Shown piece after piece: positions 3,561-58,960 of a DNA stretch of 64,000 nt. A model generated the notes under the pieces. The model was not told the origin of the DNA. It made no database searches and saw only the letters and a program-made list of their open reading frames with translations. The position numbers were made by a program, and so were the translations under genes. How positions within the stretch are numbered: position 1 is the first letter of the stretch; the number at the start of each line of letters is the position of its first letter. The DNA comes from Botryllus schlosseri (taxonomy: Eukaryota). The stretch lies in assembly GCA_051294905.1 (NCBI GenBank), contig CM119372.1:34226001-34290000 (forward strand). The letters are read 5' to 3'.

Positions 3561-3658
3561 AAAGAAGGGAAGCGACTACAACGATGAGACGTGTGCCAGC
3601 AGCAGTCAGCCTATGTAACTGAAATCCATATGTCAATATGCGATGCAGTAATCGGGAG

Positions 3659-4349: not shown

Positions 4350-4356
4350 CTAGGGA

Positions 4357-31395: not shown

Positions 31396-33956
31396 ACATT
31401 ACCTCTCCATAATAAGAATGGTTCATCGGTAAAAAGATATCACTCATAATCAATGTTTCCCCGTTTTTCATGAGTCTGCGCGCACTCATCAATTCGGTGC
31501 GCCGTCCCTTGGACAACATTTGAAGATCCGAAGCAGAGGACAGTTGACTAACCAAAAATTTAAAATAAGTTCATCAGTTTGACTAGACAGCTAGGGTTGT
31601 CCAAAATAAGAAAAATCTCGAAAATGCTTCGGTGTATTGTCTCATTCTATAGATTATTGTTTAAAAAATACAATAAGCCTGGAAGAAGCTCACAATAAAG
31701 TGGTTAAGATTTCGTGCAGAGCATTTAAAAGTAGCTACTGAAGAATGGGCGTGCCACCGAACATAGAACGGCGCGAAGACTATTAATCACGAAATCACGG
31801 CTCAGTGCCCCCTTGATTGACTATAATCAGATATGCCTTAATTATCGCGACAGCGGCAGCTTGCTGATTAGGGTGGAGTGAAAAATGAAAATTTTTGAAT
31901 TTCAAAAAAGTGCCGTGATATGAGGTGCCAAATAGTAAATAAATAAATTCTATCATAATTTTGGGTTCATACACCATCTAGTGGTCGTGCATTTTCACAG
32001 AACGTGCCGAAAATAGTCAATTTCATCATATCTTGATAACCTCTTACACTAGAAAGCTAGTTATGAGCTTAAAAGATGCAGCAACAACATGTTTCTATCG
32101 CACTTCCATAGAACTTACTCTTAAAAATGAAAAGAGCAAATTACTGACTTTATAGGTAAAATTAAGCACTGAAGCAGTGGGTAGGATGTCAAAAGCGTGT
32201 AGTGATTGATCTTATGACTGAGCTGTGACGTCTGCATTGTAATGGAGTTTGGCATTGCGGCATTGGGGCCATGACATTTCGGCGCTAGAAGATATCAATA
32301 TCGAAGGTCGATACGGAATAGCGTACGATCGGTCGGTCGCATTCCAGCGGATAGCCGTACTCGACCACCTGTAAGTCATATATCCGTGTTTGTGTCGAGA
32401 CTGCATGAGGAAATATACTAACTATGCGCACCGAAATAGCGAGTAATAATATCATGAAAATATAGCGCGATTGTTGTCGGAGCGCAAAAACATATTAAAA
32501 TTCACGAAAGAACATCGTCAATAATATGAGTAGTTGCACATATCACTATCAAATTTGTATCTTTCTCACCCTATTTCATTAGAATTACCGTTAGATCTGA
32601 TAGATGGGATGAATTCGAAATTTAGGGCACGTATTTTAATGATCGTGCATTGTCGGATGTGCCCATTGTTATTAATCACTTCATTGCAATATGTTGTTAC
32701 TCGACTTCCCATCATGATTGTCGGTTATGGTGAAAAGATAGTGGAATCGGCGAAACGTACCAGAAATCAAGTCGTGAGACGCACGCGATTCCAAATTGGT
32801 ACTGTCTTATGGGGCGTCAACTTTTTGTATGACGTTTGCAATGGTACTGTATATGACTCGCACTTCATAGGTACTACAATCGAAAAATTGAATTGCGCTG
32901 ATCGCGTGAAGCGCGAAGAGAATTTTTGAAGTGGAATTGCAATGTCTCCATGCATTTTGGTTGGATGAAAATAAAGACTCTCTCTTTCTCTCTCTCCGAA
33001 ATTTTGGAACCGATAGGTTTAATTCAAATTGCATGACGGCCGCCAATGCTAATTGCATTACGTGTAAATACACCCGCATAACTATTCGTTTACCGCCGTG
33101 GTCACCTCTGATCTTAGGCAATATTTTGTTGAACGCAGCGTTGTGTCAGATCAAGAGTATGTGGCTATATGTTCGTAGCCGGAGGGTTCCAGGTTACCGT
33201 CGCAGGTTATCGGACACAACGTCCTTTATTGCCACAGCCTGCGTGCGAAAAGTTCTAATGTGATAGCAAAAAGTCGTCAACTGAATCAGCTAGCCTTTTA
33301 GAATTTATATCTTTGCGAAGTGATTCTAAAAGAGAATCTACGTCCCCAACCCCGAACTTCACCGCACGTGACTGATTAAATTGATAAAAAGTGGCAAAAC
33401 AGATTGATTTTTATACACTTATGCTCTCTTTGGACTCCGGCACGCTAGATGGTGCACGGACTGCACGCGCACCATAACGTTGCATGTTATTTCCCCAATA
33501 TCAAAGCGCACACGCTTTCGTCACGACGTCGGATCCCATGACCAATGTGACCATTGACCATGGGCGTTTCAGTTTTAGCGCGACGTGACTTATCGAGAGT
33601 GGCGATGATGCAGGCGGGTATACTGTTTAGTGACTCCAGTATAGTTCAAGGCTGCAGAATTGATATTATTAGGATATATCGAGTGAATCAGTTATCATGG
33701 GAAATGTATGCAATGCATATTATAATCAATACCGCCTTTATGCTATAACTTCTATTAGGCTATCCCCGGTAAGTCACTGACGTGATTGATGCGACGTAAT
33801 CGGTGTAGCTTGTAGGTGTTCATGGAAAAGAATAGCCGTAAATCGGAGAACCAATGTTTTCCACCCGATCAAAGGGATAAATAGGTCGTGGCACCCCATC
33901 GCTTGATCAGTAATGAGTTGCTTATATATAGCTTATATATTTACTTACATATAAGA

Positions 33957-34323: not shown

Positions 34324-35063
34324 AAACAGCAGTGTTATTATATCAGCTGATTGTCTTGAAAGCTCACAATGAACTACGCCAGTCCTCTTCAGCCGCGATC
34401 GCTATGTTTTACTCAAATTTCCTCAAAACTGCATATCTCAATCTACATAATATATCAAAAATGCGTACTGCGTTGTAATCCTAAACGAGATAAGGCTGCA
34501 AGGTTTAATACATGTTAATGCTAAAACCTAACAACGCTCGATATTCCTAGACCGCGACCTCACTAGATGGTTATCGACCGGAGTCTGTGCAGCATTTTCC
34601 GGAAAGCCTTTTTGCGAAACAATTGAAAGTCAAATTTGTGATAATGTAAGCCAGGGACGGGCAACATACGGCCCGCGACGGCATTTTGTCCGGCCCGCGT
34701 ACAGTTTCCCGTCTTGCATGATAATGTGACCCGCGGCCACAGTCTGCCGAGATTCCCCACTACTTGTTTAAACGTCAAATTTTAGTGACTGTTTGTTATT
34801 ACATACGTGTCTGCGCAGCCTGCGAAAGTAGAGGTTACGCGTAAGTTCGTTGAACCGAGAAGACTTGCATTATCGGCATTTACCATGTACTCAACCCTAA
34901 TGAATTGATATATTGGTAAATTTGCGGCGGGCTTATCAAACGCCTTGAAATCTTAATTAATGATTGCACCATAGTGTCCTATATGATGTGGACACAACCA
35001 AATCTCACGGCTCAGTGAGATTGGTATCTCACGGCTCAGCGAGATTGGTCTACGCCACACTTT

Positions 35064-35509
35064 CCGTCTTGCCGAACGTTAATTTTGATAAAACTGGTAT
35101 CGATCGAAAGCTACCGCGGTACTGATTGCGTAAATATAAATTTTATTTTGCGCGTGGCCCTGGACCCCCCCAGAATCAGCCTCGAATGTTGCATTGTAAC
35201 GTACTTTGATATTGTGACGCAACCATGACGTCTGAGCAACTCGGGAGCAAGTGCGCACGAGAGTGAGAGTGTGACTGCCCAATCGGTTGCGCAACAATGG
35301 CCAATACGCTTGCGGTTTGCGCTGCTCCCACTTGCTCCCAGACGGCCAGGTGGCGTCACAATACCAAACTCCGTTATACTGCAACTTTCGAGGCTGATTT
35401 TGGGGGGTTCCAGGGCAACGAGCAGCATAAAATCTGTAATCTCGCAATCAGTACCGCGGTGGCTTTCGATTGATACCCGCTTTATCAAATTTCGCGCTCG
35501 GCAAGCCGG
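35064..35509. mobile_element. Foldback-type MITE with long imperfect TIRs
   Basis: Arms of ~170 bp, e.g. atcgaaagctaccgcggtactgattgcg vs cgcaatcagtaccgcggtggctttcgat. Confidence 0.8.
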
Positions 35510-36241
35510 TAATTATAGGACATTATGATTACACCGTGTGTTAATTGATCAGAGAGAAGCAGATATGGCGGCGCCTGTATGACAATGCTGTTCTCAAATC
35601 CACGTTGTCTTCGTCATTATCGGCGAGAAATAGCTTTGAAGTGAATACGATCTATTCCGTGTATATGTGGATAAGTAGGCTAATAATGTATCGATTCAGC
35701 AATCCGGCCTGCCGACTGGAGAAGTTGCCCGCAGGTGGATCATATGAAGCAGTTTGCTGATTAGCTGCTAAAACTTCATGGCTTACATTTGCCGACCGGC
35801 AGTTAGCGGTAAAATATCATACTGTAGCTGCTCATTTAAATTGCGTGCAAGTTATCTCGTTAACGAGTAGGTCCATCGATAGACAGAGATTGCTATTGTT
35901 CAGGTCTGTTTCATAAAGATTTGTGGAAGAATGCGAATTTCGAATAGAAAGGTCATTCTGGGTAATGAAAATCAGAAACCGTCGAAGCACGATGACATTC
36001 TCGGTGTTCTCATATTTGGCGTCGGTAGTTTATATGTGTATTTTCCAATGCTTTGCTAATGTCGGGAAATCCCGGTTTAAGGAGTAAAACTTCTTGAAAA
36101 TCCCGATCCCGTGATTTCAATTGTGATCCGGACAAATTCCAACCTAATTATGACTGCCTGTGCATACCTTCTTATAATTTGATACCAATTCACTAGTTCT
36201 AATTCGTATCAGGCAGTTGAGGAAAAGCACGAAGTGGTCGT

Positions 36242-36785
36242 TAGGGGTCTTCAAAAATGAATATTTCTCAAATCGTACTGGCTACTTGATAAAATTGTTA
36301 GGTTACCTAATTTAGGCCTACACACCAAATTCGGTTCAATTCCAGTCAGTAGCCGGTAGCCGCGTTGCTACAGGATAAAAAAGTTTCTATTTATTATAAA
36401 AAAATAAATAACAAAAAATTCCAACCAGTGGAAGCGGAGTTATTGCCGTCGAAAAATTTGGATTTGAATGAAATAGTATTTACTCTAATATACTATAATA
36501 AATAAATAAAGAATTGGTCACCGTAAATACTATTTTATTCATAATCCAAATTCGGTAAACATGATTTCTATAGACAACCTAACACTTTCATGGGGTGAAC
36601 AGAAAATTGTCAAATTTTTTGTTATCTATTTTTATATAATAAATAGAAACTTTCTTCTCCTGTAGCAATACGGCTACTGATTGGAATGGAACCAAATTTG
36701 GTGTGTAGGCTTAAATTACGTAGCCTAACGATTTTATCAAGTAGCCAGTACGATTTGAAAAAAAAGTCATTTTTGAAGACCCTTA
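36242..36785. mobile_element. Long-TIR MITE with 8-bp TSD
   Basis: About 190-bp inverted arms starting taggggtcttcaaaaatga; TSD gtggtcgt/gtggtcat. Confidence 0.85.
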
Positions 36786-37116: not shown

Positions 37117-39659
37117 CAGAGGTCTCAAACACGCGGCCTGCGGGCCGCATGCGGCCCGCGACGGCATTTTGGAAAATAAGTATTCAACGATACAATCAAG
37201 TGCCATATATCTTTTTTTAGGTATAGGAACTTGAAGTTCACGCTAAAACTACTATAGAAATTACTGAGATCTCAACAAACATCATTATCACATCACTTCT
37301 AACAACTACCATGAGGTAGAAGATCAGTTATTACGTCACATTTCTAACTCATGATGATAAAACGTGATGCATTGATGATTCGTGACTGAAAATTGTGATT
37401 TGGATTGGGGTGCGACCTTGTCGTAAAATAACTCGACTTGAGCTGGGTCAAACGCTGAAATCGGAGGAGGATATGCGACTCGGAATGGTGACTTGGCAAT
37501 CCTATAAGGACGCAACCAGGGCCGTAACTGCCGCATCCCAAACCCCAATTGGGGGGGGCGAGCTCGAAGGGGGCCCAATATTATTTCGAGAATTAGCATA
37601 AATTATAGTCTTTTTTGAAAAATTATGCAACTTTTTCAAAATATTTTCGCGCCGACGCGCGATTTCAAATTGCCAGATATGTGGATTATTAGGTACTCTT
37701 CCCCCAAGAAAAACACGCAAGATTTATAGAAATAGGCATATCACCGTTGGCCATTACCTTGCCGCGATGCACCAAGACATATAAAGTTTTAGGCCATGTA
37801 ACATGTGACTCCAAGAGGTGAGACAGAACGATCGACAGCGAGAAAACCTTGGCCGAAAATGACTGCCCTTATCCTGACCGAAAGCTTCCTTATCTATACA
37901 AAATACATATAAGTTAAATTGTCTTTAGGCGCCTAAATGACTGGCGCCGAAAGTTCCTGTCTTGGCAATCTGAACCTTACTAGACAAATACCATCCCGCA
38001 GGGAAAAATTATATGCCAGTTAAGAAATACCAATTTGAAATCGTGTGATCTTTTAGTTTAGTACGTTTAGGCGATTCTATATTTTTTGATATAGCAGGCA
38101 GGAGGTCACGAAATAACATCACGTAACGAAGTTATACCAGCGGGTCCGCCGGCCCGAAGATGAATAATTATTATTTACGGGCTCTACAGTTTCAAGACAC
38201 CTCACTCAGCTCTACTGGTAAATCTGATCACGTGAGCGGAGAGGACAAGAAATTGATAGCAATATATATGCAATTCCCGATCTTATTGACCGATTTTATC
38301 ATGAATTATTGAAAATTTTCGCGCCTGGTGCTGGCTCACTAAACGGTACGTGGCAAAGGCGAACAACGTGAGGGGAGTCGGTTTATCCCCCAATGGGAGC
38401 CTAAGATTCCCGTCTTTTTGGGGTGGACTGACGAAGTGTCGTTTCGTTCCTGCCAACGGGTATAGACCCGGAGATGTTTGATTATTATTGTGGGGTCATA
38501 CACCTTTTCAAGCACACCTCACTCTGCTCTACTGATAATCAGATTACGTGAGCAGAGAGAGGAAAAATTTGCTAGCAATATATATGCAATTCCCGTCCAT
38601 AATGACCGATTCAGTCATGAATTATAGAAATTTCTCGCGCTTGGCGCGTTTAGGCGAGAAAAGCTGACTCCCCAAACGGAACCCAATGTAGATGTTTAGT
38701 AGCGGTAAACAGCGTACAGTGTGAGGGGGGGGTATGGGGGCAGAAGTTCGGTTTATCACCCTATGGGGGGGCCAAGACTAACGTTTTTTGGGAGCCTGAC
38801 GTAGTGCTGCTACGGCCCTGGACGCAACAATCTATGAAACTGTCATAGGGAATAGTAATATATCAAAAAGTCGTAGCTTGCGTTGCGTAGGGTATATGGC
38901 TATCTCATCAGGTCAGTATGGCAACCATATATTTTCTTGGCCAATTTATTCAACTAGAAAATAGTGTTCGCGCTACGCGCGATTTTGTGAATGGGCTTAC
39001 TGATTTTAATAGGTTAGGTACCAACAGAAATTGTGTTGAAAATGGATTGGGGCTACGAGAAATCTTATTTGAAGCACAGGGGGTACGATCGCTAAGAAGG
39101 TCAATAAGCAATGCTATTACTATGGCTCAATAATGATTATATTTAAGTTGTTATTGATATATGGAAGGTAAAATCTCATGGTTATTTAATTTGAGTCTGA
39201 CAATGACAGTAACAATAGCCTATACTTATCACGACTATCTGAAAACCAGGATTAGACAACACCGCTCAAATGCTCTGATATCAGATCAATCTTCAGTAGA
39301 TTTTAAAATATTCTACATAAAGTTGTTGCTCGTCAAAGGTCCACTAGTTGCAATATTATAACCCCACAGTTTTACGATGCCCTGATGCATCCTCTCACAT
39401 GATGTCTATAACTCGAATATTAAAAAAAAAATCTGTCCGGCACAAAAACAATTTTATTCAAATATTTGAAAATGTTTTTTTCCTTGTCTCGCGTGAATAG
39501 TACAATAGTAAATTACATCTCCACGATGTTTGTGGAACGCCTGTCTGCAAGGTTCCATCAAATAAGGCCATTGATTATCCCTATTATTGATGCTGCGGCC
39601 CGCGAAATCATCAAAACTAGGAAATTGGCCCGCGAGCACATTTGAGTTTGAGACCTCTG
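37117..39659. mobile_element. hAT family B with nested family D
   Basis: TIR cagaggtctcaaac/gtttgagacctctg; perfect TSD TTCTAGAG. Confidence 0.92.
37517..38820. mobile_element. Family D non-autonomous element (CAGGGCCGTA TIR)
   Basis: TIR cagggccgta/tacggccctg; perfect TSD GACGCAAC; internal ~300-bp duplication. Confidence 0.92.
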
Positions 39660-41989
39660 TTCTAGAGTTATTTTCCTTATGGTCGATTTGGGTGATAGAG
39701 TCGGTCAGAGTTTATCGACTTTCGCAAAATCGTGGCTTTCAGTCCGTTTCCTGTGCCTTATACCAGAAAGGCGTATTCTGTCTATTTTTTCTCTAATTCT
39801 TTTTTCTGTGTGCATTTTGAACTGAATGAAAATCGGCAAAAATGAGAGATACCCTTATAATTTGAGCGCCGCAATTTTGCCTAGCCTAGTAAATGCAATA
39901 TATATATCAGGGCTTATGCGGTTGCTATGGTTTGGACTTCGGAGTGATATAAAATCTCACTATAAAACAGGGGTCATCAACACGAGACCCGCGTGGTCAT
40001 ATTTTGCCGCCAGCGATGAGTTGAAAATTCGGAAGAAGGTTTATTAAAGAATTTTGAAATTCTGGAATTTCAACTTCAAAATATTATTGTTGTTGTTCAA
40101 AGTAGGAGGTGAACAGGACGAAGTTAACAGGTGATTAGCACGCATGTCTTTTATTGCATGATTTTTTTAGTCCAAATTCTATATTGTAGGCCGTGAAGTC
40201 GTTTACAAATGAGGAGACCCTGTTTAGCTACGTACCCAGTGAGCTATTGAACGACGATGATATTGTCTTTCGAAAGGTAGAGTTTGAACATTCAATGTTA
40301 ACATGCCTACCAGCCCACGACATAACTTTGTGTACAAGGAATTCTGCTCTTGAAATTAAACCCAAAATACATTTCTACAATTATGTTGATACGCTTTTGA
40401 GAGGACTTGCAATCGAAACAAGGCTATGCCTTTCTTCGCACAATTGGCTAAAGATAATTAATAGGAACGCTCGCATAACTGACGGATTTTTTGTTTGTAT
40501 GTTGAGTAGGCCGCGCATTTGTTTGTTTGTTTTTCATCAATTACAATCACCAAAACATCACGATGCAATTATAAGATAGGAAGGAGTCGAACTGATATAT
40601 ACCTTGGCATTGCATATAGAAAATTCAAATATGAGGCATCCACTCTGAATTGGAAATTATTGTAATATTCGCTTGATTTCCTGCAAAAGATATTCGCTAA
40701 TTGCGCTATACTCTTCTTAAGGTTAAGTCCACCGTGTTTCAGTATTATATCCAATGGGTGTTGAAAGTCGCTACGATAATATGGATTGGTCATGAAACAT
40801 GTCCCTCTATTCTTGTATTGCACAATTGGATTTGATGTCATGGTAACATTTGTCTGACATTTGGTTTCTTCGAAGAGGTTCAACGTGCGTGGTAATATGC
40901 CAGAAAGGCTGTTTCTGTTCGACCTACTGCAGTTAAGTAGTCGTATCACAGTAGCCTAACGTTTTCTTACGAGCTGGTCGTCATTTACTGCCATGGCATC
41001 CTACAAAATAGTTATTGAACGCAGGGATGGTTTGAACGTGAGATTCACGTTCGCGTTCTGTGTATGAACCCCTGGAATTTGGAGGTTCACGTTCACAAAC
41101 GAACCTAGTGAACCTAGCACTAAACGAGTATGCACCTTTCCAATTTCAAAAATTATTTTCTCGGAATATTCAGCTCTTCGTTTGTGAATCATTTGTACCT
41201 CAGCTGTGAGCGTTGCCCTCAATAACGTCATAGCAAGAACGAAACACACCGCATGTAGGAAGCCAGTGAATTGTGCTTAGTCAACAAATCAGTTATTTAC
41301 AGCAACGTAATTGATATAATGCAGCGGTATCCAAAGTGGTGCCCGCGGGCTACCGGTAGCTCGCGAGAACCACATGAGTCGTCCGCGCTCGCAGTAGGAA
41401 GTACTTGAAGGGGCACTGCACTCTAAAATTTTGGCCGCAGCCGTTTGCTTCAGGACGCCACCGTAATGGAGCTGCAATGTATTGAAATTTCCACAAACAC
41501 ATCACGCTCCAGCAGTCACGCAGAGATCGAACTTTATATAGTTGTCGGCCAATGTTATGAAGGAAATATGTCGTACACGACAGAAATAGAATACACTAGG
41601 CCCGATTTTGACATAAATCTTATGACTGAATATCTTCCGTTGAACGCGGTATGTAAACCACGTTAGCGTGATTATTTCGAGAAAACTTTTGTAACAAAGC
41701 AAGTCCAAAAATGATATTGTAAATCACCATAAGTATCGTGTTTTGAATCAGTTTCTATTTTACTTGAAAATTATCTATACGCGATTTAGTTTTATCGGAT
41801 ATCTTGATTTTAATATGGGTGCATAAATATCTAGAAAAACCAATCGTATCAGCAATACGTCATTCTAATATCGCACGATACGGCTGGGATGCTTTAGTCA
41901 AAGGGTAGGAGCGGAGATGTTAGGCATGGGCGTTTTCTGCAAGAAATTAGGCAAATATTACGTGTAATAAACGTTAGCTATGATGCTTT

Positions 41990-42730
41990 GGCAACCCAAA
42001 GTATACTCCTCTGGACATATACTTTACGACTCGCTGGCGTTCAAGGTTTTTATAACAGCCATCGGGTACGAGCTCATACCATCTGGTTCGGGCTCGATGT
42101 ACACCTACCGAATTCAAATCCGCGATTGGCAATACCGGAAGGTAATTGTATTGGGTTTTGTTTTGTTTTGTTGCTTTTTGTGGCTAGTAATTCAACTGAC
42201 AACGTGGCAACGAGTAATTAACTTTAACATGAAAGTATTCCAAGCCAAATCAGCCTTTATGATACGACGAGGAAATATTATGAGGATTCAATTTTGCAGC
42301 TCTCGAATTCAGGCATATCTAGTTAATCATTTCGGCCGAAAGCTTCAAAGCATCGTTAATGTACTAAGGGTTCTCTCTCAAAAGTGGTACAGTGCCTCTT
42401 ACTTCGACTTCTACACGCTGCTCGCTGCAGGATACAATACCTCGTCTGGAACATTTTGTGGAAAATAACCTGAGCTAGCGTGACGGCGAATTGGCGATGT
42501 AAAAGTACGCGCAATTTTGCCTGAATTATGATAAACCTCTGTATGCATGGAGACATGTCGCAAACAGCTACGGTATATATTTCGCGTGTAGGTCGACGAA
42601 AGAATTCATGATTTTACAGATTCTCAGATCTTAATTTGCAATGAGAACTCGGGAATATGTATAGAGCTATTATTCTACTATAACCATATGCCCCTCATAA
42701 GACCAGCGTCCCCCTTATCGCCCCTGGGCA
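41990..42730. mobile_element. Internal fragment of hAT family E just upstream of the zinc-finger ORF
   Basis: Colinear similarity with ~18690-19600 (e.g. tcgatgtacac..gcgattggcaatac, ttcggcc.gaaagcttcaaa, ttttgtggaaaataac). Confidence 0.7.
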
Positions 42731-42962
42731 GATCAAATAAAATTGTGCAGTATTGCTGCTATTGAGTTTGACATCAACTAACCTACAGTCCCTGGAATGT
42801 TCCATGCGAATTTTACTTCCTTGACTTGCTATTTCAGATCGTTTTGTTACAAATACCAACAAGCATTTTTATCATACATATTCAATACTTTGAAGTTCAC
42901 CAAGACCAGAATTCCCGGTCTCTGAGATCTGCGACAAACATTTTCGTCAATTGAGGAATGTC

Positions 42963-44858
42963 ATGGAGTCGCATCATCAACATTTTCATGATGATAGTAT
43001 CAGTCATAATTGTTCAATTTGTGGGAAGGAATTTGCTCAAGAGGGTCTCCTCACGGCTCATACCAATATTCATCACTGGTGCGACATATGTGGAAAAACT
43101 TTGTCTACAAAAAGCAATTTGAAGTTGCACAGGAATAGACATGCCGGTGTCCAAAAAAATCAAAAGACTTATAAATGTGGTGTTTGTGATAAAGAATTTC
43201 CTTTGCGATTTGACTTTAAGATGCATATGAATGTTCATTTGGGAGCTGAAAATTATGAATGTGAAGTTTGTGGTAAGACATTCTCCATGAAAAGTTACCT
43301 GAAGCGGCACATGGATAGACATACTGGAGTTACAGTCAAATGCGATATCTGTGGAAAGGAGTTTTCTATGGCACACTACTGGAAGACGCATATGGCTATA
43401 CATTCGGGTGCTGGGAAACATAAATGCACTATTTGCGGGAGAGACTATTCTTGCAAATCCTACTTGAAGACTCATATGGTACTGCATACTGGAGACAAAC
43501 ATTATAACTGTGATATCTGTGGGAAAGGTTTTTCATGGAAATACCACCTGGAGAGGCATATCAATCATGTACATGATGGTGTGAAAAACCATAAATGCGA
43601 AATTTGCGGTATACGGTTTTCTTTCAAGTGCAACTTGAAGAATCATTTGGATGTACATGCTGGTGTCAAAGCTCACAAATGCGATGTCTGTGGTAAGGGT
43701 TTTTCTCGAAAATCAATGCTGATGCTACATCTGGGTGAACATGGTGGACTCAGAAATCATAAATGTGAAATTTGTGGGAAAGAATTCCTTATCGATAGTT
43801 CTCTCAAGAGTCATATGCTAATGCATTCTGATGTGAAAAATTATAAATGCGATATCTGTGGGATGATGATGGCTCGAATGGATTACCTAAAATCTCACAT
43901 GAGAACTCACACCGCGGAAAGAGATCATAAATGCCATGTTTGTGGAAAAACATTCGCGAGAAAATACTATGTCAAGTCTCATATGAAGAGCCATAATACG
44001 GAGAAAATCCACGGATGCGAAATTTGTGGAAAGGATTTTTCATCGAAAGAACACCTCCAGATTCACATTAAAAGTCATAGTGCAGATAAAAGTCACAAAT
44101 GTGACATTTGTGGCAAGGAATTTCATCTAAAGAATAACCTGAAGACTCACGTAAATATTCATAGCGGTGTTAAAGATCATCAATGTGAGATTTGTGGAAA
44201 AGAATTTAATCAAAAAATTAACCTCAAGACTCACATGAATATTCATACTGGTGATAAAAATCATACATGTGATATTTGTGGAATAGAATTCGCTGCGAAG
44301 CAGAACCTCGAGAAACACTTGGCTCTTCATAGTGGCGTTAAAAATCATCAATGTGACGTCTGCGGGAAACAATTCGCTACTCGTCAAGTTCTGAAAACTC
44401 ATTTGAATATTCATAACGATGTAAAAAATTACAAATGTTACATTTGTGGAAAAGAATACGGTAGAAAATTTTGCCTTACAAGTCATATGAAAATTCACAG
44501 TGACGATAAAAATCATGAATGTGCGATCTGCGGTAGGAAATACCGTCATAAATGCGCCTTGAAGACTCATATGAATATACATTGCGGTCTTAAGGAACAT
44601 AAGTGTGATGTATGTGGAAAGGAGTTCTCAAAAAAGAATAACCTCCTTACTCATTGCAAAATTCATATTGGTGCAAAAGATTATAAATGTGAGATTTGTG
44701 GAAATGAATTCACTCAAAAGTCAAATCTCAATAAGCACACACATATTCACAGTGGGGAAAAGAATCATCAATGTCAAATATGTGGAAAGAAATTTACTCA
44801 GAAGCACACCCTCGATACTCACTTAACAAGTCATGGTCGAGAGCAATGTTCCCTCTAA
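42963..44858 (+). CDS. Tandem C2H2 zinc-finger protein, 22 fingers, no effector domain seen
   Basis: Uninterrupted ORF; 22 CxxC-x12-HxxxH(H) units counted from the translation. First ATG at 42963 (the ORF track starts at TTG 42951; in-frame TGA at 42891). An upstream spliced exon cannot be excluded. Confidence 0.9.
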   Translation: MESHHQHFHDDSISHNCSICGKEFAQEGLLTAHTNIHHWCDICGKTLSTKSNLKLHRNRHAGVQKNQKTYKCGVCDKEFPLRFDFKMHMNVHLGAENYECEVCGKTFSMKSYLKRHMDRHTGVTVKCDICGKEFSMAHYWKTHMAIHSGAGKHKCTICGRDYSCKSYLKTHMVLHTGDKHYNCDICGKGFSWKYHLERHINHVHDGVKNHKCEICGIRFSFKCNLKNHLDVHAGVKAHKCDVCGKGFSRKSMLMLHLGEHGGLRNHKCEICGKEFLIDSSLKSHMLMHSDVKNYKCDICGMMMARMDYLKSHMRTHTAERDHKCHVCGKTFARKYYVKSHMKSHNTEKIHGCEICGKDFSSKEHLQIHIKSHSADKSHKCDICGKEFHLKNNLKTHVNIHSGVKDHQCEICGKEFNQKINLKTHMNIHTGDKNHTCDICGIEFAAKQNLEKHLALHSGVKNHQCDVCGKQFATRQVLKTHLNIHNDVKNYKCYICGKEYGRKFCLTSHMKIHSDDKNHECAICGRKYRHKCALKTHMNIHCGLKEHKCDVCGKEFSKKNNLLTHCKIHIGAKDYKCEICGNEFTQKSNLNKHTHIHSGEKNHQCQICGKKFTQKHTLDTHLTSHGREQCSL

Positions 44859-47281
44859 TTTTTCAAGAGTCTGCGCAAACACGCCAACTCACTGCGCAGG
44901 CCCTCGGACAACAGTGCGCAACCACCCACCAATAGGGTGATAAAAGTAACTACTGGGGGGCGAAGCGCCCCAGACCCCCCGACGACTCTAGGCTTCTTCC
45001 GGTACTTATCATGTATATTGGGTGCCCATCTAGTAGTAACGTCCCTAAACGCGCGAAGCGCGAAAAAATTTCTATAATTCATGATTGCATCGGCCAATAT
45101 GATCGGGAATTGCATATATATTGCTATCAATTTTTATCCTCTCCCTGCTCACATAATCAGATGTACCGGTAGAGCTGATCCAGTGAGGTGTGTTGGAATA
45201 GATAGGCCCTCTAAACAATAATAAAACATCTGCGGGCGTACCCGTTGATATAATGACTTCGTTACATGATGCTATTTCGCAGTGTTGGGATGACTCGAGT
45301 CACTTTTTCGTATGACTTGACTTGACTCGAGTCACTTTGCTAAAATGACTCGACTTGACTTGACTCGGCGTATCAGAAATGTGGATTGACTCGTGACTCG
45401 GAGCAAAATTCACGAGTCAATTTCAAGTCATCAAGTAATCGGTGTCGATAAAAATCACTGTATCTTGCATATGTTCGGATGGTTCGCGAAACTCTGGTGT
45501 AACCCGTGAGAGCGACCAATCAATCAAAGATCGTGCGTTTTACTGAGCCTCCATCGTTCTCTCACAAATATATTGATCGCAAACGAAGGGATCGAAGCTT
45601 ACAGCCTACGCTGTCGTAAACTATACTATAGTAAGGTAATTTAATAGCAAAATGTCTATTCCTGCTCTGCGTTCTTAATTTGACCGAACCTCTTGTTTTG
45701 TTGAAATTGAATTCGAAAATAGTTTACATAGTCCTCAACCATTGGCCCAGGCTCGAATTGTATCATATCAATATGCAAAAGGGTAATGTATTGTACCTTA
45801 TCTATTCGTTTCTCTATTTTGGCTGGTAACTATAAACTGAGGCTGTGCAATTACTTACGTAGTTTATTAGTTCTACTTGTATGCGAGCGATACAGCGCCT
45901 TACTTGGGTGTATATTTAACTCTATATTCGTTCATCGGTTCAAAATCAATGACCACTCAATCTGTATTTCAGACAGCTAGCAAAATACAATGACATAATC
46001 ACGCCTCATACCTCGAAAAGGCAATTTGACTTGAATTGTGACTTGACTCGTGACTTGACTTGACTCGACTTGACTCGAGTCACCTCCAAAAATCGACTGA
46101 CTTGACTTGACTCGAGTCACCTTCGAAAATCGACTGACTTGACTTGACTCGAGTCAAAATGTACAATGACTCGAAATGACTCGTGACTCGAAGGTAGTGA
46201 CTTGATCCCAACACTGCTATTTCGTGACCCCCTATCTGCTATGTCAAAAGATATTGAAATCGCCAAAACGTACTAAAGTAAAAGACGTACACGATTTCAA
46301 ATTGGTATTTCTTGGAAAATAATGTTCCCTCGATATGGGACTCGGATCGCGAGGACAGGAACATTCGGCGCCAGCCATTTAGGCGCCCGTGGACATGGAC
46401 AATGACACATATATTTGTATATATCGAAGTTTTCGGTCAGCACCGGGGCAGTCTTTTTCGCCCAAGGTTTTCTCGCTGCTGATCGTTCTGGCGCACTTCT
46501 TGGATTCGCCTGTTACGTAGCCTTTAACTTCATATGTTTTGGCGCGTCATGGTGCGGTAATGGCCGACGCCCAACTGCCCATTTCTATAAATCATGCCTA
46601 ATTTATGTTGGGAAAGGGTACCCAATAATCAGATATCTTACAATAATAAAACGCGCGTAGCGCGAAAAAAAATCCTGAAAAATTTCAAAAAATACACCAT
46701 GATTTATGTTAATTCTCGAAATAATTTTGGACCCCCTTCGAGCTCGGCCCTCCAATTGGGGGGTTTGGAGTGCGGAAGTTACGGTCCTGAGTAAATCTTA
46801 CGCAATGTTCATGCCACACGGAGAAGACTATCATTCGTTAGTTTCTCGCAGATTAACTTCGAGCTAGCCCATTGTTATTTATAACTTTGTTAAACCATGT
46901 TATTTCGCCATTCCCAGAAAATAATGTGCTATTGAAATGGTATCAGTATCGCTTACGTGTACGAGGCCCTACTAAAAAATATTTTCCGTGAGGCGCAGGT
47001 GATTGTGAACTCTCAATTCTTCACGGAGCGCAATAGTTACATTTGCGGGGTGCACTTGTACCTCGGTTTCAGATTTCAGTGATAACACTATTTGGCCCTG
47101 ACAATGTTCCATCTTAATTTTCACGAATCTGCGCGCCTGCGTGGTCCATTGGACAACAGTGCGCAACAACTATAAAAAAAACATCATTTCTGATTTGTTG
47201 TGCGCAGCGTATATTTTCTGTGCGCAGAGACCGTTTCAGCACTGCGCATTTGCGCACGTGCGCAGCTTAGAGGGAACATTG
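44844..47281. mobile_element. hAT family H inserted into the 3' end of the zinc-finger ORF; contains family D (~44925-46789), which contains a MITE
   Basis: Perfect 15-bp TIR CAATGTTCCCTCTAA/TTAGAGGGAACATTG; perfect TSD GTCGAGAG (44836-43, 47282-89); TGCGCA subterminal motifs. Confidence 0.92.
45280..46216. mobile_element. hAT MITE (CAGTGTTGGGAT TIR), inverted copy of 14751-15660
   Basis: TIR cagtgttgggat/atcccaacactg; perfect TSD CTATTTCG. Confidence 0.92.
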
Positions 47282-47289
47282 GTCGAGAG

Positions 47290-47435
47290 TACAGTTAGAA
47301 AAGTGGGCATTTGTAGGAGGTAATATCTGGAAAGGATAGCCTCAAAAGGCATCTATATGTCCATTTTCTCGTCAGAGCGGGAAGAAGAAATTCGTTCAGA
47401 AGAGCAACCTCGATAATCACTCATTAAGTCATAAT
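47290..47435 (+). pseudogene. Decayed zinc-finger repeats, former continuation of the array
   Basis: Frameshifted IC..SGKDSLKRHLYVH, and GKKKFVQKSNLDNHSLSH at 47379-47432, resembling the last intact finger GKKFTQKHTLDTHLTSH. Confidence 0.7.
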
Positions 47436-48374
47436 TCTGGCAAAAATTCGGAATGAAGCATTTATGGGACGGAGCCTCAAAGCACATTCAGATATCCTTT
47501 GTTAGTGTAGTGTAACTATTAGATAGAAGTCTCGGCGGAACTTGTATGACTCATCTGATTTCACGAGTCGTCAATGCGTTTTGCTTTTAAATGACAGTCA
47601 AAACAACATCGTAAAACACTACTCTTGCTTTACTATTGGAGTAAATTAGTAAACAATGCATGTGAACATTAGTGCTGAAAATGAGCTGTGAGGCCCAGGC
47701 GCTCTTTTTGAAGACATAATTCGTTTTCAACTGCTTGCATACTGACTTCTCTATAATCACATTAACGTTGAAGTTGAAAATTTTGTTGTCGTGGTCTTTT
47801 ATTTTACCGCATACCTTCGCATTTCTTGAGTGTTTTAATAAATTAGCCAAACTTCATTTAGGGACTATTAGGGCATTTCATAGTACTACACAGTGAACAG
47901 TAGATTCAGTAATACTGAGCAGTGAGCATCAGTAAGAGAACGGCACACGTTGGTTACGGCGGCTCTGTCATTGTTTGCGTGTGGACCATTGTCACGTCAA
48001 GTCAAGACCCATTCGTTGCTATCAGAAAGTTTACCGTCGTTCCCGACAAGAACATGTTCTATAGCGGAGATGGCCAAACTGCGGATCTGGACATTTTATT
48101 GTGGTTCTTAAATGTTTGCACAGATGCAGCTATCCCGTTATTGGTGAGATAAGTAATATGATTAAGCAATCGATCTCTGGTATCGATTTGAGATGGTCGT
48201 TTCCTGCGCAACAATGTCTACATTGCGTTCAGTGATGAACTAGAATTCTGTGTTTCCCAAATTTTGTTGAGCTACCGCCCCCTGGACAGCGAATAAACTG
48301 CCAGCGACCCCCGACCTCCTTCGCCACGCCTGAATCATAAAAACGAAAGTTATTCTGCATTTACTACAGCTTAA

Positions 48375-48980
48375 TTAATGACACGGATGAAGTTGGTGTA
48401 TTCTTTTCACCATCCTCGTCATATTGGGTTTGAGTTTTGATATGAACAATCTCATTCTAAATTCTCCAGTCTCCACGTCCCATGCTTGCACGTAGGTTTT
48501 GCTGTGAGTCAGAAACTTAGTCACGGCACTGAAAGCACATTCTATTAAATAACAGCGGGGAAATGCAACGACGAAAAAGACAACCCTACCCCAGTGGGGG
48601 TATTACTATTCGATTTAATTGTATATCCAGAGTTGTTGATTGGAGATATTGAACTTTCACTTGAACTAAAAATTGTTCTACACTTCAATATAATCAGCTC
48701 CACAATTATTTCATGCTCGGAAACTTTACAGAATGGCTTGATTATCCGGCAAGGGATTTGTAATAGGGATATATCCTGGAATCAAATCACCACATCATCG
48801 TGCAGTTTTCTGAAATGGTCGATATATGTTTCTCCGTCAAAGTAGGATATTCGAGCTGGACTGGTAGCCCATGCAAGCTTTAGATTCGGAACAATTCTCG
48901 TGTCGCAAAATTTCGGTGAAATATCACGGGCTTATCACTAAATCCAGGCAGTGCCATTTCCACCTTTATGCGTTTTCATA
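48375..48980 (-). pseudogene. Buster/Charlie-type (ZBED5/SCAND3-like) hAT transposase C-terminal remnant; host element possibly ~48248-52347
   Basis: HWGRVVFFVVAFPRCYLIECAFSAVTKFL..RMRLFISKLKPNMTRMVKRIHQLHPCH* resembles the Buster C-terminus (AFP.SYL.E.GFSAV..HQ.HPSH*); upstream YIDHFRKLHDD..FQDI..IP..I.PF with stops. Confidence 0.8.
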
Positions 48981-48996
48981 TTACTAACAACGGATA

Positions 48997-50888
48997 CAGT
49001 GGCGGCTCGTCCTATAGGGCAACTGGGGCATTGCCCCACCTAAAATTCTGTTCAATAACAATTCTTTACCATTTATAGACGCACACCTATCTATATAAAC
49101 CGAAATCACAGCGAAAATCGTATACTTCTTGTCCTTTCGCTTGTAAATGCCCATATATAGCGAAGTCTATGCGAAAATCGAATTCTCTTCTGTGTTTTCG
49201 CTTTGCGAATGCCTAGCCGGGGCTTGCCCCGGTAGCGCTCATAACAAGCTTTCACTGTCTATTCTCTCAAAACCGCGCACAATAAAGAAACGGTGATTTA
49301 TACTCTCCTATTCATAAAATTACCGAGCAACCGGGGCACGATAGCTCTGTGCCCTTAAGGTTTGATGTAACAATCGTATCTATAGCTGAACTCTGTTACC
49401 GTCATATGCGTTTAGTCGACCTTTGCTGGTATAGGTCGATTTTAATGGGGTTTCACACCATGAAAACTCTTGAAACTTGTTATGTCATGTCGTGATGGTG
49501 GTATTTAACACTGCCCCAAGTTTCAGGGTTTCTACTTAAAGTTTAGGGTAGTAATTCCGTTTCCGAAGTTGAGTGTGTGCTGATCCGTCATGTATCGCAA
49601 ACAGATTTTACTCAAAAGCCGGTATTGGTATCCATTGGTTTTGACGGTGTTCCATACTGAGATCGGTTATGACATTTGGCACGGTAAGTCTTAATGTTAG
49701 TATCGAACGCTGTACCAAGTTTTAAGTTTGTCACTAAACTGTGTTAGTGGTAATTTCGTTTCCTAATTCGAGTGAGAGCTGACTCGTCATTTATCGCTAA
49801 CAGATTATACGCAAAGCCGGTATTGGTCTCTATTGATTTTAACGATGCTCCTTACCTAGATCCGTCATAAGCTTTTGCACGGTATGTCTTGATTTTAGTA
49901 TCGAACGCTGTGCCAAGTCTCAAGGTTGACACTCAATGATTAGGGCAGTAATTTCGTTATCAAGGTCGAGTATGGTAAAGATGTGCTCCGATCTGACACT
50001 TTAGCCTACAACACATTGCGGATTTCACGCAAAAGCCGGTGTATCTGCGGTAACGTTAAGTGAGATGATGCTATCATTCTCAGTTTGCATTCAAATATTT
50101 ACTTTGATCGTATATTCTCCAATGTCAATTTCACCGTGAAATTGTGGCCTTCAAGCCATTTGCGTACAACCCCCCCGTCACTTGATCAGCCTATTCCTCA
50201 GTAAATTTTACGCAAAATTCGGTGTTGCTCTGTTCGCATTAATTTTGACAGTGTACCATACCGAAAAGGGCCATGAGGCCACTTCTCGATAATGTCATGT
50301 AACAGTGTACCAAGTTTAGGGCTTTCATCCACGTATTTATTCGGTAATATATTTTTCAAAGGCGATTTCGCAGCAGACCTATAAGACAGTAATAAAAACG
50401 TATGTGTCGTGTTACAGTCTCCAGTTTCAAGGCCAAAATCTCTTATGCTGTACCGAGACCAAATTTCCGAGGCTGCTATTCTTAGTCCTTTACAATGATG
50501 TTTTGGATTCAATAGGACAGGCCCAATCTATGAGATAACAATTGCGTATCTGTCCGAATTCGTTGACCTTTCCAATTAGGCTTACGCTATCTCTCGAGTT
50601 ATAGTCATTTCCATTTCTGCAGATAATTAGTCAGGTCTAATGCGAACATGAACCGTGTTGAATCTTTGTTCCGTACGCCGTTTACGCAGTTACCACACTT
50701 CAAGTCACAGCTCACCAGCGGACCTCTCGTGGCACATACGTTAAAATCACTGTTGCCGGGAAATTCATGTTACTGTACCATCATTAAGTTACTTGTTTAC
50801 GTTGGAAAACGCCATTGTGACGTCATCTTGATAAAAAGTCGCTTGCAGCCCTTGCCCCACCACCCGATATTGTCACGAGCCGCCACTG
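48997..50888. mobile_element. 8-bp-TSD DNA element (CAGTGGCGGCTCGT TIR) containing a tandem repeat
   Basis: Perfect 14-bp TIR; perfect TSD AACGGATA. Confidence 0.9.
49500..50040. repeat. Diverged ~198-bp tandem repeat, about 2.5-3 copies
   Basis: gcacggta.gtctt.at.ttagtatcgaacgctgt at ~49679 and ~49877; aaagccggt recurs three times. Confidence 0.8.
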
Positions 50889-55560: not shown

Positions 55561-56527
55561 CAGTGGTTCCCAACCGGGGGGAATTTTGAAATTTTTAGGG
55601 GGGAATCTGGCTTTGGCGTTGTATCGGAAGACACACAGGGTTCACAATGTGTGGCGAGATAGCGCAGTGGTAAACTACACAGCCGCAACACCAACGGGTT
55701 CTGGGTTCGATTCCGACCAAGATCGACTCCAGAATTCCTACCTAAGTGTTGAGGGTTTATCTAGGCTCCTCCTTGCCATCTCATCCGTGTAAGCGGTGTC
55801 TTATAAAAGCCTAGATATGGCCCGTGTTATAAGTCGACCGATACGGAATACAGAAATGGAGGAAATTGGCCTGGTGTAAATGACCATAGTAGTCAACACA
55901 CACCATGAACACCTCGAAACAAACAAGCTGAGTTCACAAGATTTTAAGATTTTTATGGTAGAACTGTTATGAATAGAAACTAATTCTTTACAATTGTATG
56001 TTTCTTAGGCGGATTTCCAGCTGGGTGTATGTTTAAATGCCTTCCGTAGATATATACATCCCCTGATAAAGTGCGAGGCTTGCGAGACGATTTTGTTGGG
56101 CCCGCGACAGTCTCCCGACCAAATTGCTACTAAGCAGGAAGAAGTCAAGCCGAATTCAGCACAAGGACGCTGGTGAAATTGTTAACGTCTTCAAGTCAAC
56201 ATATATGAGCCAATGTGAAAAACGTCAAATTCATCGATTCGACTAGAGGCCATAGCAAGCCGACTTAGTGATTTATGTTTCGTTAGTGGCTACCCGACCG
56301 GTAAAAAAAAAAAAAAATTTAGTTGTACTTTACCACTGTGTATTGCGGTCCGCATTCGACATAGTTCGGACATATCTGAATATGATTGTCCAGTAATTGC
56401 TCAGCGAACAAATGGTTGCGCGTTAAAAAGCACCTTTTTTGTTCACGGGCAATTTTTTCATAGGGGGGAATTTCAGCTCAAATATCGGCCAAGGGGGGCA
56501 CGAGACGAAAAAGGTTGGGAACCACTG
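55561..56527. mobile_element. Buster/Charlie-type hAT element (CAGTGGTTCCCAACC TIR) containing a SINE
   Basis: Perfect 15-bp TIR; perfect TSD TCTTACAG, shared with the neighbouring element. Confidence 0.9.
55652..55920 (+). mobile_element. tRNA-derived SINE (second family)
   Basis: A box TAGCGCAGTGG, B box GGTTCGATTCC; body similar to the inverted fragment at 31090-31230. Confidence 0.65.
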
Positions 56528-56647: not shown

Positions 56648-57602
56648 TAAGGATGGTGTGAACCTCTGAAAGGTTCAGATTCGCGTGAACGCGATAGTGA
56701 ACCTCATGACGTCATGTGACGTGATATTCCTAATTCCAATTATAGATTTCAGTGAAGTGATAGCCTATATCAATGTACAATTGTACATGATACCTATAGC
56801 GACGACTAGGACCACATCATGTCACAATGCTGATGTCTATATTGACGTTCTGAACGTCGCCAAATGTATCAACTGGGGTAATCTAATGAGAAAATAATCC
56901 CATAAAATCAATATCTTCCGTCGCTTTGCCAACAATTTCGACGAGAACTTGCAAGAGAATATAAGCTTACGCCTTAACGGTCTGGGCCGGACCAGACAAT
57001 GTGTTCAGCGTCTGAGTATTGTAACGTTGATATTGAGCAGAGTGCAAAACGGGGTTCTATACTTGCTACCGATATTACCTCATTAACAAGTTACAGCAGT
57101 AGCCAACACCCAATCGCATGGCTTTGGTTTTTATGATACAATAAACATATGAAATCAAGATTGCTCGTACGCCTGGTAGATATTTTTTACATAAGACAAG
57201 GATATCAATTTCATTGATTGGTTGAATAAGCATCATTCGCTGACTCTGCAGGAAGTGTATTTCGCTATTGATGTTGTGTGATTGCGGGTCAAGTTCACAG
57301 CCGAGATTCACTAAATATTCGAGCAAACTTTTGTAACAATACCAGTAAAATTTTGGAGGTTGTCAAAGTGAATACTAGCTTAGTGTTGATTTTTTGATGC
57401 TGCCAGCGCCATGCATATAGTGGCCTGCAGTTGAAATGCAATAAATTCCAACTAAAGATGTTATAATGAAGTGAAAATTGTGATTTATCAAAATGGCTCA
57501 CGGTGCAGAACCTATCAAGGTTCGTTTGTGAACGTGAACCTCTAAAGTTCTGAGGTTCACACACAGAACGCGAACATGAACCACACGTTTACATCATCCC
57601 TC
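56648..57602. mobile_element. hAT family F (TAGGGATGGTGTGAAC TIR), inverted relative to 59304-60184
   Basis: Degenerate TIRs, GTTCAC/GTGAAC repeats, TSD gcgaacgg/atgaacgg. Confidence 0.8.
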
Positions 57603-58731
57603 ATGAACGGGTTCAAAGCAGCGCGGCGGATGAATAGCTATATGGCGTATGAAAGTATTCAACTAACTCTTGAATGCGAAAAAGAGGACATTTCGGGATT
57701 TTTTAGCGTGATATTAGACGATCATTCACTGCTATGTTGGAGATGGCCTTATTGCACGATTCGCATCAACCTGACATGGAATAACATACTCGTTTGATTA
57801 AGCAGAACTTGACCGTTCTGTTTTCGGTAGCCTTCACAATTATAACGGCCCAGTCTTCAGATTGGTAATGTTTTATTATGGAGCTTCACACGCAAACTTC
57901 AACGTATCGACACCACAACATAAAACGGCCTTAAGCCGGCGGTCACGCGATCGGTCAGCAATACGTCCAGACCTGAAAGAGCGAATCTAATGATTACAGG
58001 AAATCACGTGCACAGTTCATGACCAGTGACCACAGATAGCATAAATAACAAGGTGTACAGCAAAACCAGGTCCGCCACATAATCTCGTACCGAATGATCG
58101 AATTATAGGTCTACTTCCTGGAACTGCAGTAGACAGTAGAATTCCACTGGCTAGTGAGAGAATGGTACATTGTTTTTCAAATTAGACCCTACTACATATG
58201 GACATAAAACCCCTCAAAGCAACTACTCCACAATTAAATCCAGCTATTTGTACACTTGTCCTAGTACATTATAGTCTGGAAAACAGAAACATGCATGAGT
58301 AGGTTCGGACTTGGTTCTACCTATCTTCTCTGGATTCATCATCGACTATCACACTGCAATTGGAATGTCTTGAAAAGCCTGGAAATGATAGTGATCCAAA
58401 AGAGAAGTCGGTCTGATGAATGACGCTGACGCATCATGGGAGCGTGAGAAATGAGACTGTGTCGTGGAAGAGAGATATAGCATGGAAAAGATGTCTGAAA
58501 ATGCATTGGACCGTCAAAATACTTATCAGTATCGTGGTGCACATAGCCTTTACACTAGGGCTAAAAGCGACACTGTACATATAATATTAATAATAAACAC
58601 ATGCTGTAAGAATGATATCAATTATTTTATAGTAAACAGGCTGTATTTACAGTGTTTCGTAATGACGTACACTCATAATGCTGAGATGCGAGTATTCTGT
58701 CACTATTACGCATATTAAAAGCAATTCCAAG

Positions 58732-58960
58732 CTATATGCCGCCATTTATGCCTACTGGTAGTGCGGTGGTTGCATTCAGCGGCTTCGACTTGTTGAGCTG
58801 CGGTGGCAGTGTTGCACCGATCTTCTGTTTCTTGTTGCTAATATATTCATGCTCTACTACTTTTGGAACATCATCTTTTCTTGAGGCGCTATCGCCAGAG
58901 GCACCCGAAACCATGTCTGGCCGTCTATGCAGGTACGCTTTGGTTGCTTCCCACAATTGA
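58732..58960 (-). CDS. Class A GPCR, terminal coding exon (helix 8 + C-tail)
   Basis: Acceptor actatttcag; phase-compatible with exon 60587-60449 (AG|T = Ser); QLWEATKAYLHRRPD..GINGGI*, open to the stop. Confidence 0.7.

What the first reader, a model, noticed from the sequence alone, without database searches (positions are those of the whole stretch)
44836..47435. A transposon TIR supplies the C-terminus and stop codon of the zinc-finger protein, cutting off further fingers
Seen: the ORF ends H-G-R-E-Q-C-S-L-stop, and CAA TGT TCC CTC TAA is exactly the 15-bp TIR. GTCGAGAG is duplicated at 47282, and two decayed fingers follow. The insertion falls in the linker right after finger 22, so every retained finger is complete, while the distal part has frameshifts. 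The sequence 3' of the stop is a three-level TE nest. Inference: TE-mediated shortening of a ZF array followed by purifying selection on the proximal part. Caveat: the reconstructed empty site reads GREYS-stop (TAG 47296), so the distal fingers may already have been non-coding.
Basis: partly seen in the sequence, partly recalled or inferred. Interest (0 to 1): 0.7.

Follow-up and report, generated by a model that had tools for sequence, protein, structure and literature searches.

The report
Transposon end replaces zinc-finger gene's stop
A small jumping element landed just after the last working finger of a 22-finger DNA-binding protein gene and now spells its last four amino acids and stop codon, but the fingers beyond it were probably already dead, so this is most likely an ordinary, harmless insertion and not a transposon that shortened the protein.

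Summary
Observation confirmed: the 22-finger C2H2 ORF (42894-44858) ends G-R-E-Q-C-S-L-stop; the last 15 nt are a perfect TIR (44844-58 / 47267-81) flanked by an 8-bp TSD. The element is a high-copy, non-autonomous, hAT-like MITE; the 2,438-nt insert is a composite, not a clean nest. The causal reading is mostly not supported. One low-depth contig from another run bridges the site without the insert (X15 record 4). It has at most 7 extra letters over the distal 496 nt, so it cannot hold the 19 nt lost from finger 24: that finger died before the insertion. Finger 23 carries five disabling lesions; whether it was alive at insertion is not shown (about 15-20% likely). Constraint on fingers 1-22 is supported but cannot be dated after the insertion. 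No displayed RNA read joins the ORF to the TIR. Most likely the MITE swapped a short junk tail (YS-stop) for QCSL-stop and lengthened the 3' UTR. Dead fingers behind a stop and TE-supplied stops are both described in print.

The parts
42894..44858 (+). C2H2 zinc-finger ORF, stop to stop 654 codons, 22 fingers; first in-frame ATG at 42963; true 5' end unresolved
44772..44834 (+). Finger 22, last intact finger
44836..44843 (.). Left copy of the 8-bp TSD; covers most of codons G-R-E of the linker as it read when the element inserted
44844..44858 (+). Left TIR, read in frame as Q-C-S-L-stop (TAA 44856-44858)
44844..44922 (.). Left arm (79 nt) of the short outer MITE; other copies continue differently after 44922
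   Evidence: tables 5 and 7 (loose ends at 44844 and 44922; joint 44922->47214)
44925..46789 (.). Middle non-autonomous TIR element, left end missing, no TSD here; relatives at 23411-24993, 37517-38820 (full, 8-bp TSD) and about 61920-63214
45280..46216 (.). Inner MITE with its own 8-bp TSD (45272-45279 / 46217-46224); 83% copy at 14751-15661
   Evidence: empty-site joints 45269->46215
46790..47101 (.). 312-nt repeated sequence carried inside the insert; weak relative at about 32660-32850
   Evidence: (X5 depth 132,138 in bin 46771-47021)
47102..47281 (.). Complete 180-nt copy of the outer MITE family: diverged left arm (TIR 12 of 15), perfect right TIR 47267-47281
47282..47289 (.). Right copy of the TSD
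47290..47364 (+). Remnant of finger 23: TAG at 47296, first Cys lost, a 1-nt insertion, a TAA in the finger frame, a 1-nt deletion; net spacing still 84 nt
47365..47432 (+). Remnant of finger 24: 19-nt deletion over the linker end and the Cys pair plus a 3-nt insertion (net -16)
47433..47469 (+). Start of a third remnant (linker and decayed Cys pair)
47837..47842 (+). AATAAA, likely native poly(A) signal; two more lie inside the insert (45220, 46645)
   Evidence: sense single-cell reads at depth 5.17 in 47524-47774; function inferred

Best explanation
The finger array had already been cut back to 22 working fingers by ordinary point and indel decay; fingers 23-25 were junk in the tail and 3' UTR. 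A non-autonomous hAT-like MITE (or a composite bounded by two of its ends) was then inserted by a transposase supplied in trans, three codons after the last His, duplicating 8 bp. It landed in the one phase of three in which the TIR reads QCSL-stop, so it replaced a short unconstrained tail (probably YS-stop) with four new residues and added 2.4 kb to the 3' UTR. No DNA-reading finger was lost, so the change is neutral or nearly so. Shown: anatomy, frame, an empty site in nature, finger 24 dead without the insertion, constraint on fingers 1-22. Inferred: finger 23 dead before the insertion, hAT transposase, neutrality, translation of the TIR stop.
For: table 8: X15 record 4 (967 nt, depth 2) aligns to 44399-44841 and to 47291-47786 with 3 letters between, the exact spacing of an empty site with one TSD. 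Its distal piece is 498 letters against 496 with 12 gap letters, so at most 7 extra (gap count and net length are consistent as letter counts in 16 of 16 displayed pieces). Rebuilding finger 24 needs 19 letters back, at least 10 for the Cys pair. Finger 23 has five disabling lesions in under 50 nt; if these and the insertion are exchangeable in time, the insertion is first about 1 time in 6 (inference). The TSD preserves the linker at insertion time and has Arg at position 2, seen in 0 of 17 regular linkers. TSD and TIR are perfect (23 of 23), as for a young insertion. Sense single-cell reads pile at 47524-47774 ahead of AATAAA 47837 (10 reads, 9 starts at 47704), placing the remnants in a 3' UTR. 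The TIR stop falls in 1 of 3 phases from either end; the other phases stop within 14-31 codons, so the early stop needs no special cause.
Against: The bridge rests on one contig of depth 2, and its letters were not displayed, so the TAG at 47296 and finger 23 were not read in it. It is 12.9% different on both sides and may be a paralogue or a deep allele. Finger 23's two indels cancel, so an intact finger 23 fits the 12 gap letters. The remnants' decay at conserved columns (6 of 38, against 35 of 426 in intact fingers, p=0.11; against 0 of 23 in TSD+TIR, p=0.05, or 0.08 with another gap setting) is not clearly older than the split from that contig (about 6.5% per lineage). No displayed read joins the ORF to the TIR.
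Confidence: 0.64

Rival explanations
1. One-finger truncation. The 19-nt deletion had already ended the protein after finger 23 (with a ~20-residue junk tail); the MITE then removed a still-working finger 23, which decayed afterwards, and the 22-finger allele was tolerated or favoured.
For: Finger 23 keeps its exact 84-nt spacing; its state in the insertion-free contig is unknown. Excess decay at conserved columns is modest and not significant. The insertion sits between fingers, leaving 22 whole.
Against: It needs two tolerated truncations in a row, and all five disabling lesions, two of them indels, to fall after an insertion whose TSD and TIR are still perfect. The linker was already atypical in the TSD.
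Confidence: 0.18
2. The window's allele is a recently disabled or N-terminally cut allele, so the insertion is a passenger on a gene copy that no longer makes the normal protein.
For: Two contigs from two runs are 8 letters longer than the window within 42846-43481, and a third is 19 shorter within 42849-43315; all three are offset from the window by the same frame. Eight letters placed in 42894-42922 would join a 47-codon open frame (42782-42922) to the ORF, where a finger-like motif lacks its first Cys.
Against: The place of the 8 letters was not displayed; only about 30 of some 165 possible positions give that join. The ORF is intact from ATG 42963, with all 88 zinc ligands and no stop, which neutral change of 2% would leave in 9 of 2000 simulations. 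A few RNA reads close to the window's type lie on the ORF (2 at 43535, 2 at 44319).
Confidence: 0.1
3. One reading: the insertion removed two or more working fingers, and all distal decay came later; the bridging contig is then an excision product, a recombinant or a misjoin.
For: The contig has depth 2, and a precise excision would also leave one TSD. Perfect TSD+TIR after 6.5% neutral change has probability 0.21, so an older insertion is not excluded.
Against: A misjoin would not give the exact one-TSD spacing with 443 and 498 letters on the two sides. A recombinant needs a crossover in the ~90 nt between the site and the deletion. hAT excision usually leaves a footprint (recalled, not tested).
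Confidence: 0.04
4. The TIR stop is not used: splicing or an earlier transcript end bypasses it.
For: No displayed RNA read joins 44843 to 44844 (782 joints and 4005 loose ends were not shown).
Against: No displayed RNA joint starts within the ORF. Finger arrays usually lie in one last exon (established for KRAB-ZNF genes, recalled). RNA depth at the 3' end of the ORF is about 2, too low to test.
Confidence: 0.04

Closest known systems
Dead zinc fingers behind a stop codon in ZNF genes, e.g. human ZNF252 (PMC2865497, passages read)
   Same: A tandem C2H2 array cut by an in-frame stop, with complete and degenerate finger motifs left in the 3' UTR; the paper calls this a reviewed feature of KRAB-ZNFs.
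   Different: Here the present stop is spelled by a transposon end; no KRAB or other effector domain was found; only two to three remnants follow.
TE insertion supplying a stop and an altered C-terminus: wheat Mariam element (PMC6824096, passages read)
   Same: A short non-autonomous element in coding sequence gives a few new residues and a stop; alleles with and without it exist.
   Different: Mariam has no TIRs, stops at its nt 41 and removes part of an enzyme domain; here the stop is the last codon of a 15-bp TIR and probably removes no working domain.
Non-autonomous hAT elements / MITEs, Ac (hobo) family (PMC8961557 and PMC8969392, passages read)
   Same: 8-bp TSD, 15-bp TIR, no coding capacity, many copies; the TSD fits the nTnnnnAn consensus given for hobo/Ac.
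   Different: No transposase partner was found, so the superfamily rests on TSD and TIR alone; the insert is a composite with two left arms.
Lineage-specific, fast-evolving metazoan ZNF families (Wells et al., bioRxiv 10.1101/2022.11.29.518450, abstract and outline read)
   Same: A long tandem array with no close relative in the protein databases and with paralogues in the genome.
   Different: That work is about ZNFs repressing TEs; nothing here shows what this protein binds.

Membership tests
hAT-type non-autonomous TIR element (MITE) | 8-bp target site duplication | tested here: met
   44836-44843 = 47282-47289; empty site with one copy's spacing. 8 bp is also made by P and some other superfamilies (recalled).
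hAT-type non-autonomous TIR element (MITE) | Short TIR of 10-25 bp | tested here: met
   15 of 15; range from PMC8961557
hAT-type non-autonomous TIR element (MITE) | Short, non-coding, many dispersed copies with shared ends | tested here: met
   156 and 153 X5 contigs leave the window exactly at 44844 and 47281; no ORF of 100 codons in the insert; family unit about 180-200 nt
hAT Ac/hobo family | TSD consensus nTnnnnAn | tested here: met
   GTCGAGAG has T at 2 and A at 7; one site only, about 1 in 11 by chance at this base composition
hAT superfamily | Autonomous partner with a hAT transposase and the same TIR | not testable with these tools
   No genome is held; no Pfam hit in 20 other ORFs of the window
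TE-derived C-terminus and stop codon | TE sequence in frame with the host ORF and holding its stop | tested here: met
TE-derived C-terminus and stop codon | Present in the mature transcript | tested here: inconclusive
   RNA depth about 2 at 44512-44762; junction bin swamped by other copies; no such joint or read displayed
TE-mediated truncation of a working domain array | Insertion-free allele encodes more working fingers | tested here: inconclusive
   Not met for finger 24; finger 23 not readable
TE-mediated truncation of a working domain array | Selection on the shortened ORF after the insertion | tested here: inconclusive
   Constraint along the lineage is shown but the insertion is not dated against the near haplotypes
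Tandem C2H2 ZNF gene | Array of C-x2-C-x12-H-x3/4-H motifs at about 28-residue period | tested here: met
   22 motifs; Pfam zf-C2H2 E 4e-96, zf-H2C2_2 E 2e-107
KRAB/ZAD/FiNZ-type ZNF | N-terminal effector domain | tested here: inconclusive
   None in the ORF or in 20 other ORFs scanned; short upstream exons were not searched

The most novel reading that the evidence does not exclude
A high-copy MITE whose TIR reads QCSL-stop from either end acts as a portable terminator for zinc-finger arrays: here it removed a live 23rd finger and the shorter allele was kept, and the same TIR ends other paralogues of this family, giving a route to array-length change that leaves whole fingers.
Probability: 0.06. 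Interest if true: 0.6.

Novelty: new member of a known kind. Interest (0 to 1): 0.2.

Why it matters
If the best reading holds it matters little: it is a tidy example of a MITE end overwriting a dispensable tail, and a warning that a TE sitting at the border between intact and decayed sequence need not have made that border. If finger 23 was alive, it would be a datable case of a DNA transposon changing the length, and so perhaps the DNA target, of a zinc-finger array, testable by comparing alleles that still exist with and without the insert.

Tried and rejected
No whole genome is held, so paralogues could not be searched for the same TIR-derived stop. Protein searches found no close relative: best listed identities 26-44% among 120 shown of 7304 hits; 8 hits among 15 candidates for residues 500-634 in shorter proteins, 34-49%. 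The metagenome scan gave 11 loci at 32-45% identity, generic fingers, not used further. Only 4 of the 24 listed runs could be laid (X5, X15, X23, X21); the likely source-sample runs X1-X4 were not. The tables are cut (40 of 1649 differences, 12 of 104 indels, 15 of 797 joints, 16 of 50048 pieces shown) and dominated by other TE copies, so X5's state at the junction is not visible. The test of remnant decay against the perfect TSD+TIR was inconclusive (p 0.05-0.08; one search cut remnant 24 three letters short, corrected). Finger-to-finger pN/pS within the array (all 0.34/0.70; core 0.06/0.86; helix positions 0.64/0.63) is near saturation and describes old history only. RNA depth over 43508-44511 was not taken as expression of this locus, because X5 depth there (1575-4702 against about 115-165 single-copy) shows paralogues aligning. 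Rejected: chance repeat; a clean nest with a TSD at every level. No earlier scan notes matched this stretch or these words. Seven paper searches (listings and abstract starts only) showed no report of a TIR-derived stop in a ZNF gene; the library lacks most subscription papers and no supplements were read, so this does not show it is unpublished.
Full report
Verdict. The sequence is as described, but the transposon probably did not shorten the working protein. It most likely replaced a short junk tail and old stop of an array that had already been cut back to 22 fingers.

What is there. The window's only long ORF is a C2H2 array at 42894-44858 (+), 654 codons, 22 fingers. After the last His it reads GREQCSL-stop. 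The last 15 nt are the left TIR of an insert at 44844-47281; the right TIR matches at 15 of 15, and the 8-mer before the insert recurs only once in 64 kb, directly after it. Only 3 such TIR-plus-TSD pairs exist in the window under the criteria used. Removing the insert and one TSD copy gives GREYS-stop (TAG 47296). Behind the insert lie remnants of finger 23 (47290-47364), finger 24 (47365-47432) and the start of a third. No close relative of the protein is in the protein databases or the metagenome collection, and no genome is held.

The insert. The outer family is a short, high-copy MITE: 156 and 153 contigs of run X5 leave the window exactly at 44844 and 47281, reads from other copies leave the left arm at 44922 and rejoin near 47213, and two contigs join 44922 to 47214. 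The 8-bp TSD, 15-bp TIR and nTnnnnAn target fit hAT/Ac elements as described in PMC8961557 (passages); no transposase partner could be sought. The 2,438 nt are not a clean nest. The inner MITE (45280-46216) has its own TSD. The middle element (44925-46789) lacks its left end and has no TSD here, unlike its full copy at 37517-38820. A 312-nt repeat and a second left arm follow, so 47102-47281 is a whole MITE copy by itself. Two origins fit, neither tested: a composite moved by the outer ends of two copies and later deleted inside, or repair of a break in one MITE that copied another copy's upstream flank. In both cases the inner elements need not be younger than the insertion, so they do not date it.

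The key test. I laid 4 of the 24 listed runs on 41500-49000. One contig, X15 record 4 (run labelled organism B, 967 nt, depth 2), aligns to 44399-44841 and to 47291-47786 with three letters between: an empty site with exactly one TSD's spacing. Its distal piece has 498 letters against 496 and 12 gap letters, so 7 extra and 5 missing; the gap column behaves as a letter count in 16 of 16 displayed pieces. In the window finger 24 has lost 19 nt over the linker end and Cys pair and gained 3. Seven letters cannot restore that, so finger 24 was dead in a lineage without the insert. Limits: it is one low-depth contig; its letters were not shown; it differs 12.9% on both sides. X5 holds a near type (4-7% from the window, depth 72-88) and a far type (13-14%, depth 44-57), and one far-type piece starts at the same base, 44399, so the bridging contig may be a paralogue or a deep allele. 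Either serves as an outgroup for the order deletion, split, insertion.

Finger 23 stays open. Its two 1-nt indels cancel, so an intact copy would fit the contig's gap count. For earlier death: five disabling lesions in under 50 nt; an Arg at linker position 2 frozen in the TSD, seen in 0 of 17 regular linkers; a TSD and TIR with no change in 23 nt; and the need for two tolerated truncations otherwise. Against: decay at conserved columns (6 of 38) is not significantly above intact fingers (35 of 426, p=0.11) and only borderline against 0 of 23 (p 0.05-0.08). Treating the five lesions and the insertion as exchangeable in time gives about 1 in 6 that the insertion came first; this is inference. 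The neat look needs little explaining: the TIR stops after four codons in 1 of 3 phases from either end, other phases stop within 14-31 codons, and linkers are 7 of 28 codons.

Selection on the proximal part. Three displayed pieces lying wholly in the ORF (X15 records 3 and 4-left, X5 record 12) have 0 gap letters in 1,920 nt; two more diverged ones have 2 and 4 with net zero. Five pieces outside the ORF and outside the insert (X15 records 1, 4-right, 6; X5 records 8, 15) have 54 gap letters in 1,886 nt, in 4 of the 5; X15 record 7 (1 in 551, repeat-rich) was left out of that sum. In simulation, 2% neutral change, half the distance to X5's near type, leaves no stop and all 88 zinc ligands in 9 of 2000 runs. 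So fingers 1-22 were constrained along the window's lineage. Whether that was after the insertion is unknown, because the near type's junction is not displayed.

Expression. Single-cell run X21 has sense-strand depth 5.17 at 47524-47774, single-copy sequence just ahead of AATAAA 47837, with 10 reads from 9 starts at 47704. This places the remnants in a 3' UTR. The cleanest of those reads has 7 other differences in at most 90 nt, so they likely come from the far, insertion-free type (inference). Bulk run X23 has 2 reads each at 43535 and 44319 with 5 other differences in 150 nt, nearer the window's type. Most RNA depth over 43508-44511 may be paralogues. No displayed read joins the ORF to the TIR, and depth there is too low and too swamped by other copies to test it.

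A caveat at the 5' end. Two contigs are 8 letters longer than the window in 42846-43481 and a third is 19 shorter in 42849-43315, the same frame offset in all three. If the difference lies at 42894-42922 the other haplotypes have a longer ORF and one more N-terminal finger, and the window's allele is frameshifted there. The position was not displayed; I give this about 0.1 as the main story.

Comparison with what is known. Dead fingers behind a stop are described for ZNF genes, for example eleven in the 3' UTR of human ZNF252 (PMC2865497, passages). A miniature element supplying a stop and altered C-terminus is described in wheat (PMC6824096, passages). Fast turnover of ZNF families across animals is the subject of Wells et al. 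(bioRxiv 10.1101/2022.11.29.518450, abstract). Seven searches (listings only) did not show a TIR-derived stop in a ZNF gene, which is weak evidence of absence. An earlier, unchecked note on this genome describes a large, fast-changing zinc-finger family (e1-7804400); it is context only.

Score. A real, neat, ordinary event: new member of a known kind, interest 0.2. The bolder reading, a TIR that serves as a portable stop for finger arrays, is not excluded (about 0.06) and is testable in the full genome.

Noticed in passing
window 42846-43010: Contigs from two runs are 8 letters longer than the window here and a third is 19 shorter (same frame offset); a finger-like motif lacking its first Cys sits at about 42915-42990, with a 47-codon open frame upstream at 42782-42922. 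Possible window-specific 5' frameshift.
   Followed up: partly
window 41900-42141 and 42830-42838: Candidate splice donor after 42141 and acceptor before 42838; an X5 contig matches 41703-42104 with no gaps at 7% difference. Possible upstream exon; no Pfam hit in two of its frames.
   Followed up: partly
window 44399-44724 and flanks: Run X5 holds two types of this locus, about 4-7% and 13-14% from the window, at depths near 80 and near 50; either a deep allele pair or a duplicated gene with flanks.
   Followed up: partly
window 47102-47281 and 44844-44922: Two left arms of the same MITE family in one TSD-bounded insert, with the middle element's left end missing at the first junction: composite transposition or copied-in filler DNA.
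   Followed up: partly
window 55561-56527 and 56970-59841: Two further elements with perfect >=15-nt inverted ends and exact 8-nt flanking repeats; the second has long (150-210 nt) inverted arms.
   Followed up: no
window 37517-38820, 23411-24993, 61920-63214: Three more copies of the middle element; two carry an internal duplicate of the left part and one an 830-nt internal insert (23815-24649).
   Followed up: partly
window 31451-31518: An isolated, 76%-identical left arm of the outer MITE family with no right end nearby.
   Followed up: partly
window 43011-43175: Fingers 1 and 2 are joined by a single residue and fingers 2 and 3 by eleven; none of the 21 linkers is the usual TGEKPY type (name recalled).
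   Followed up: no
window 35061-35512 and 36264-36762: Long hairpin-like inverted repeats (174-nt and 92-nt arms), probably further MITEs.
   Followed up: no
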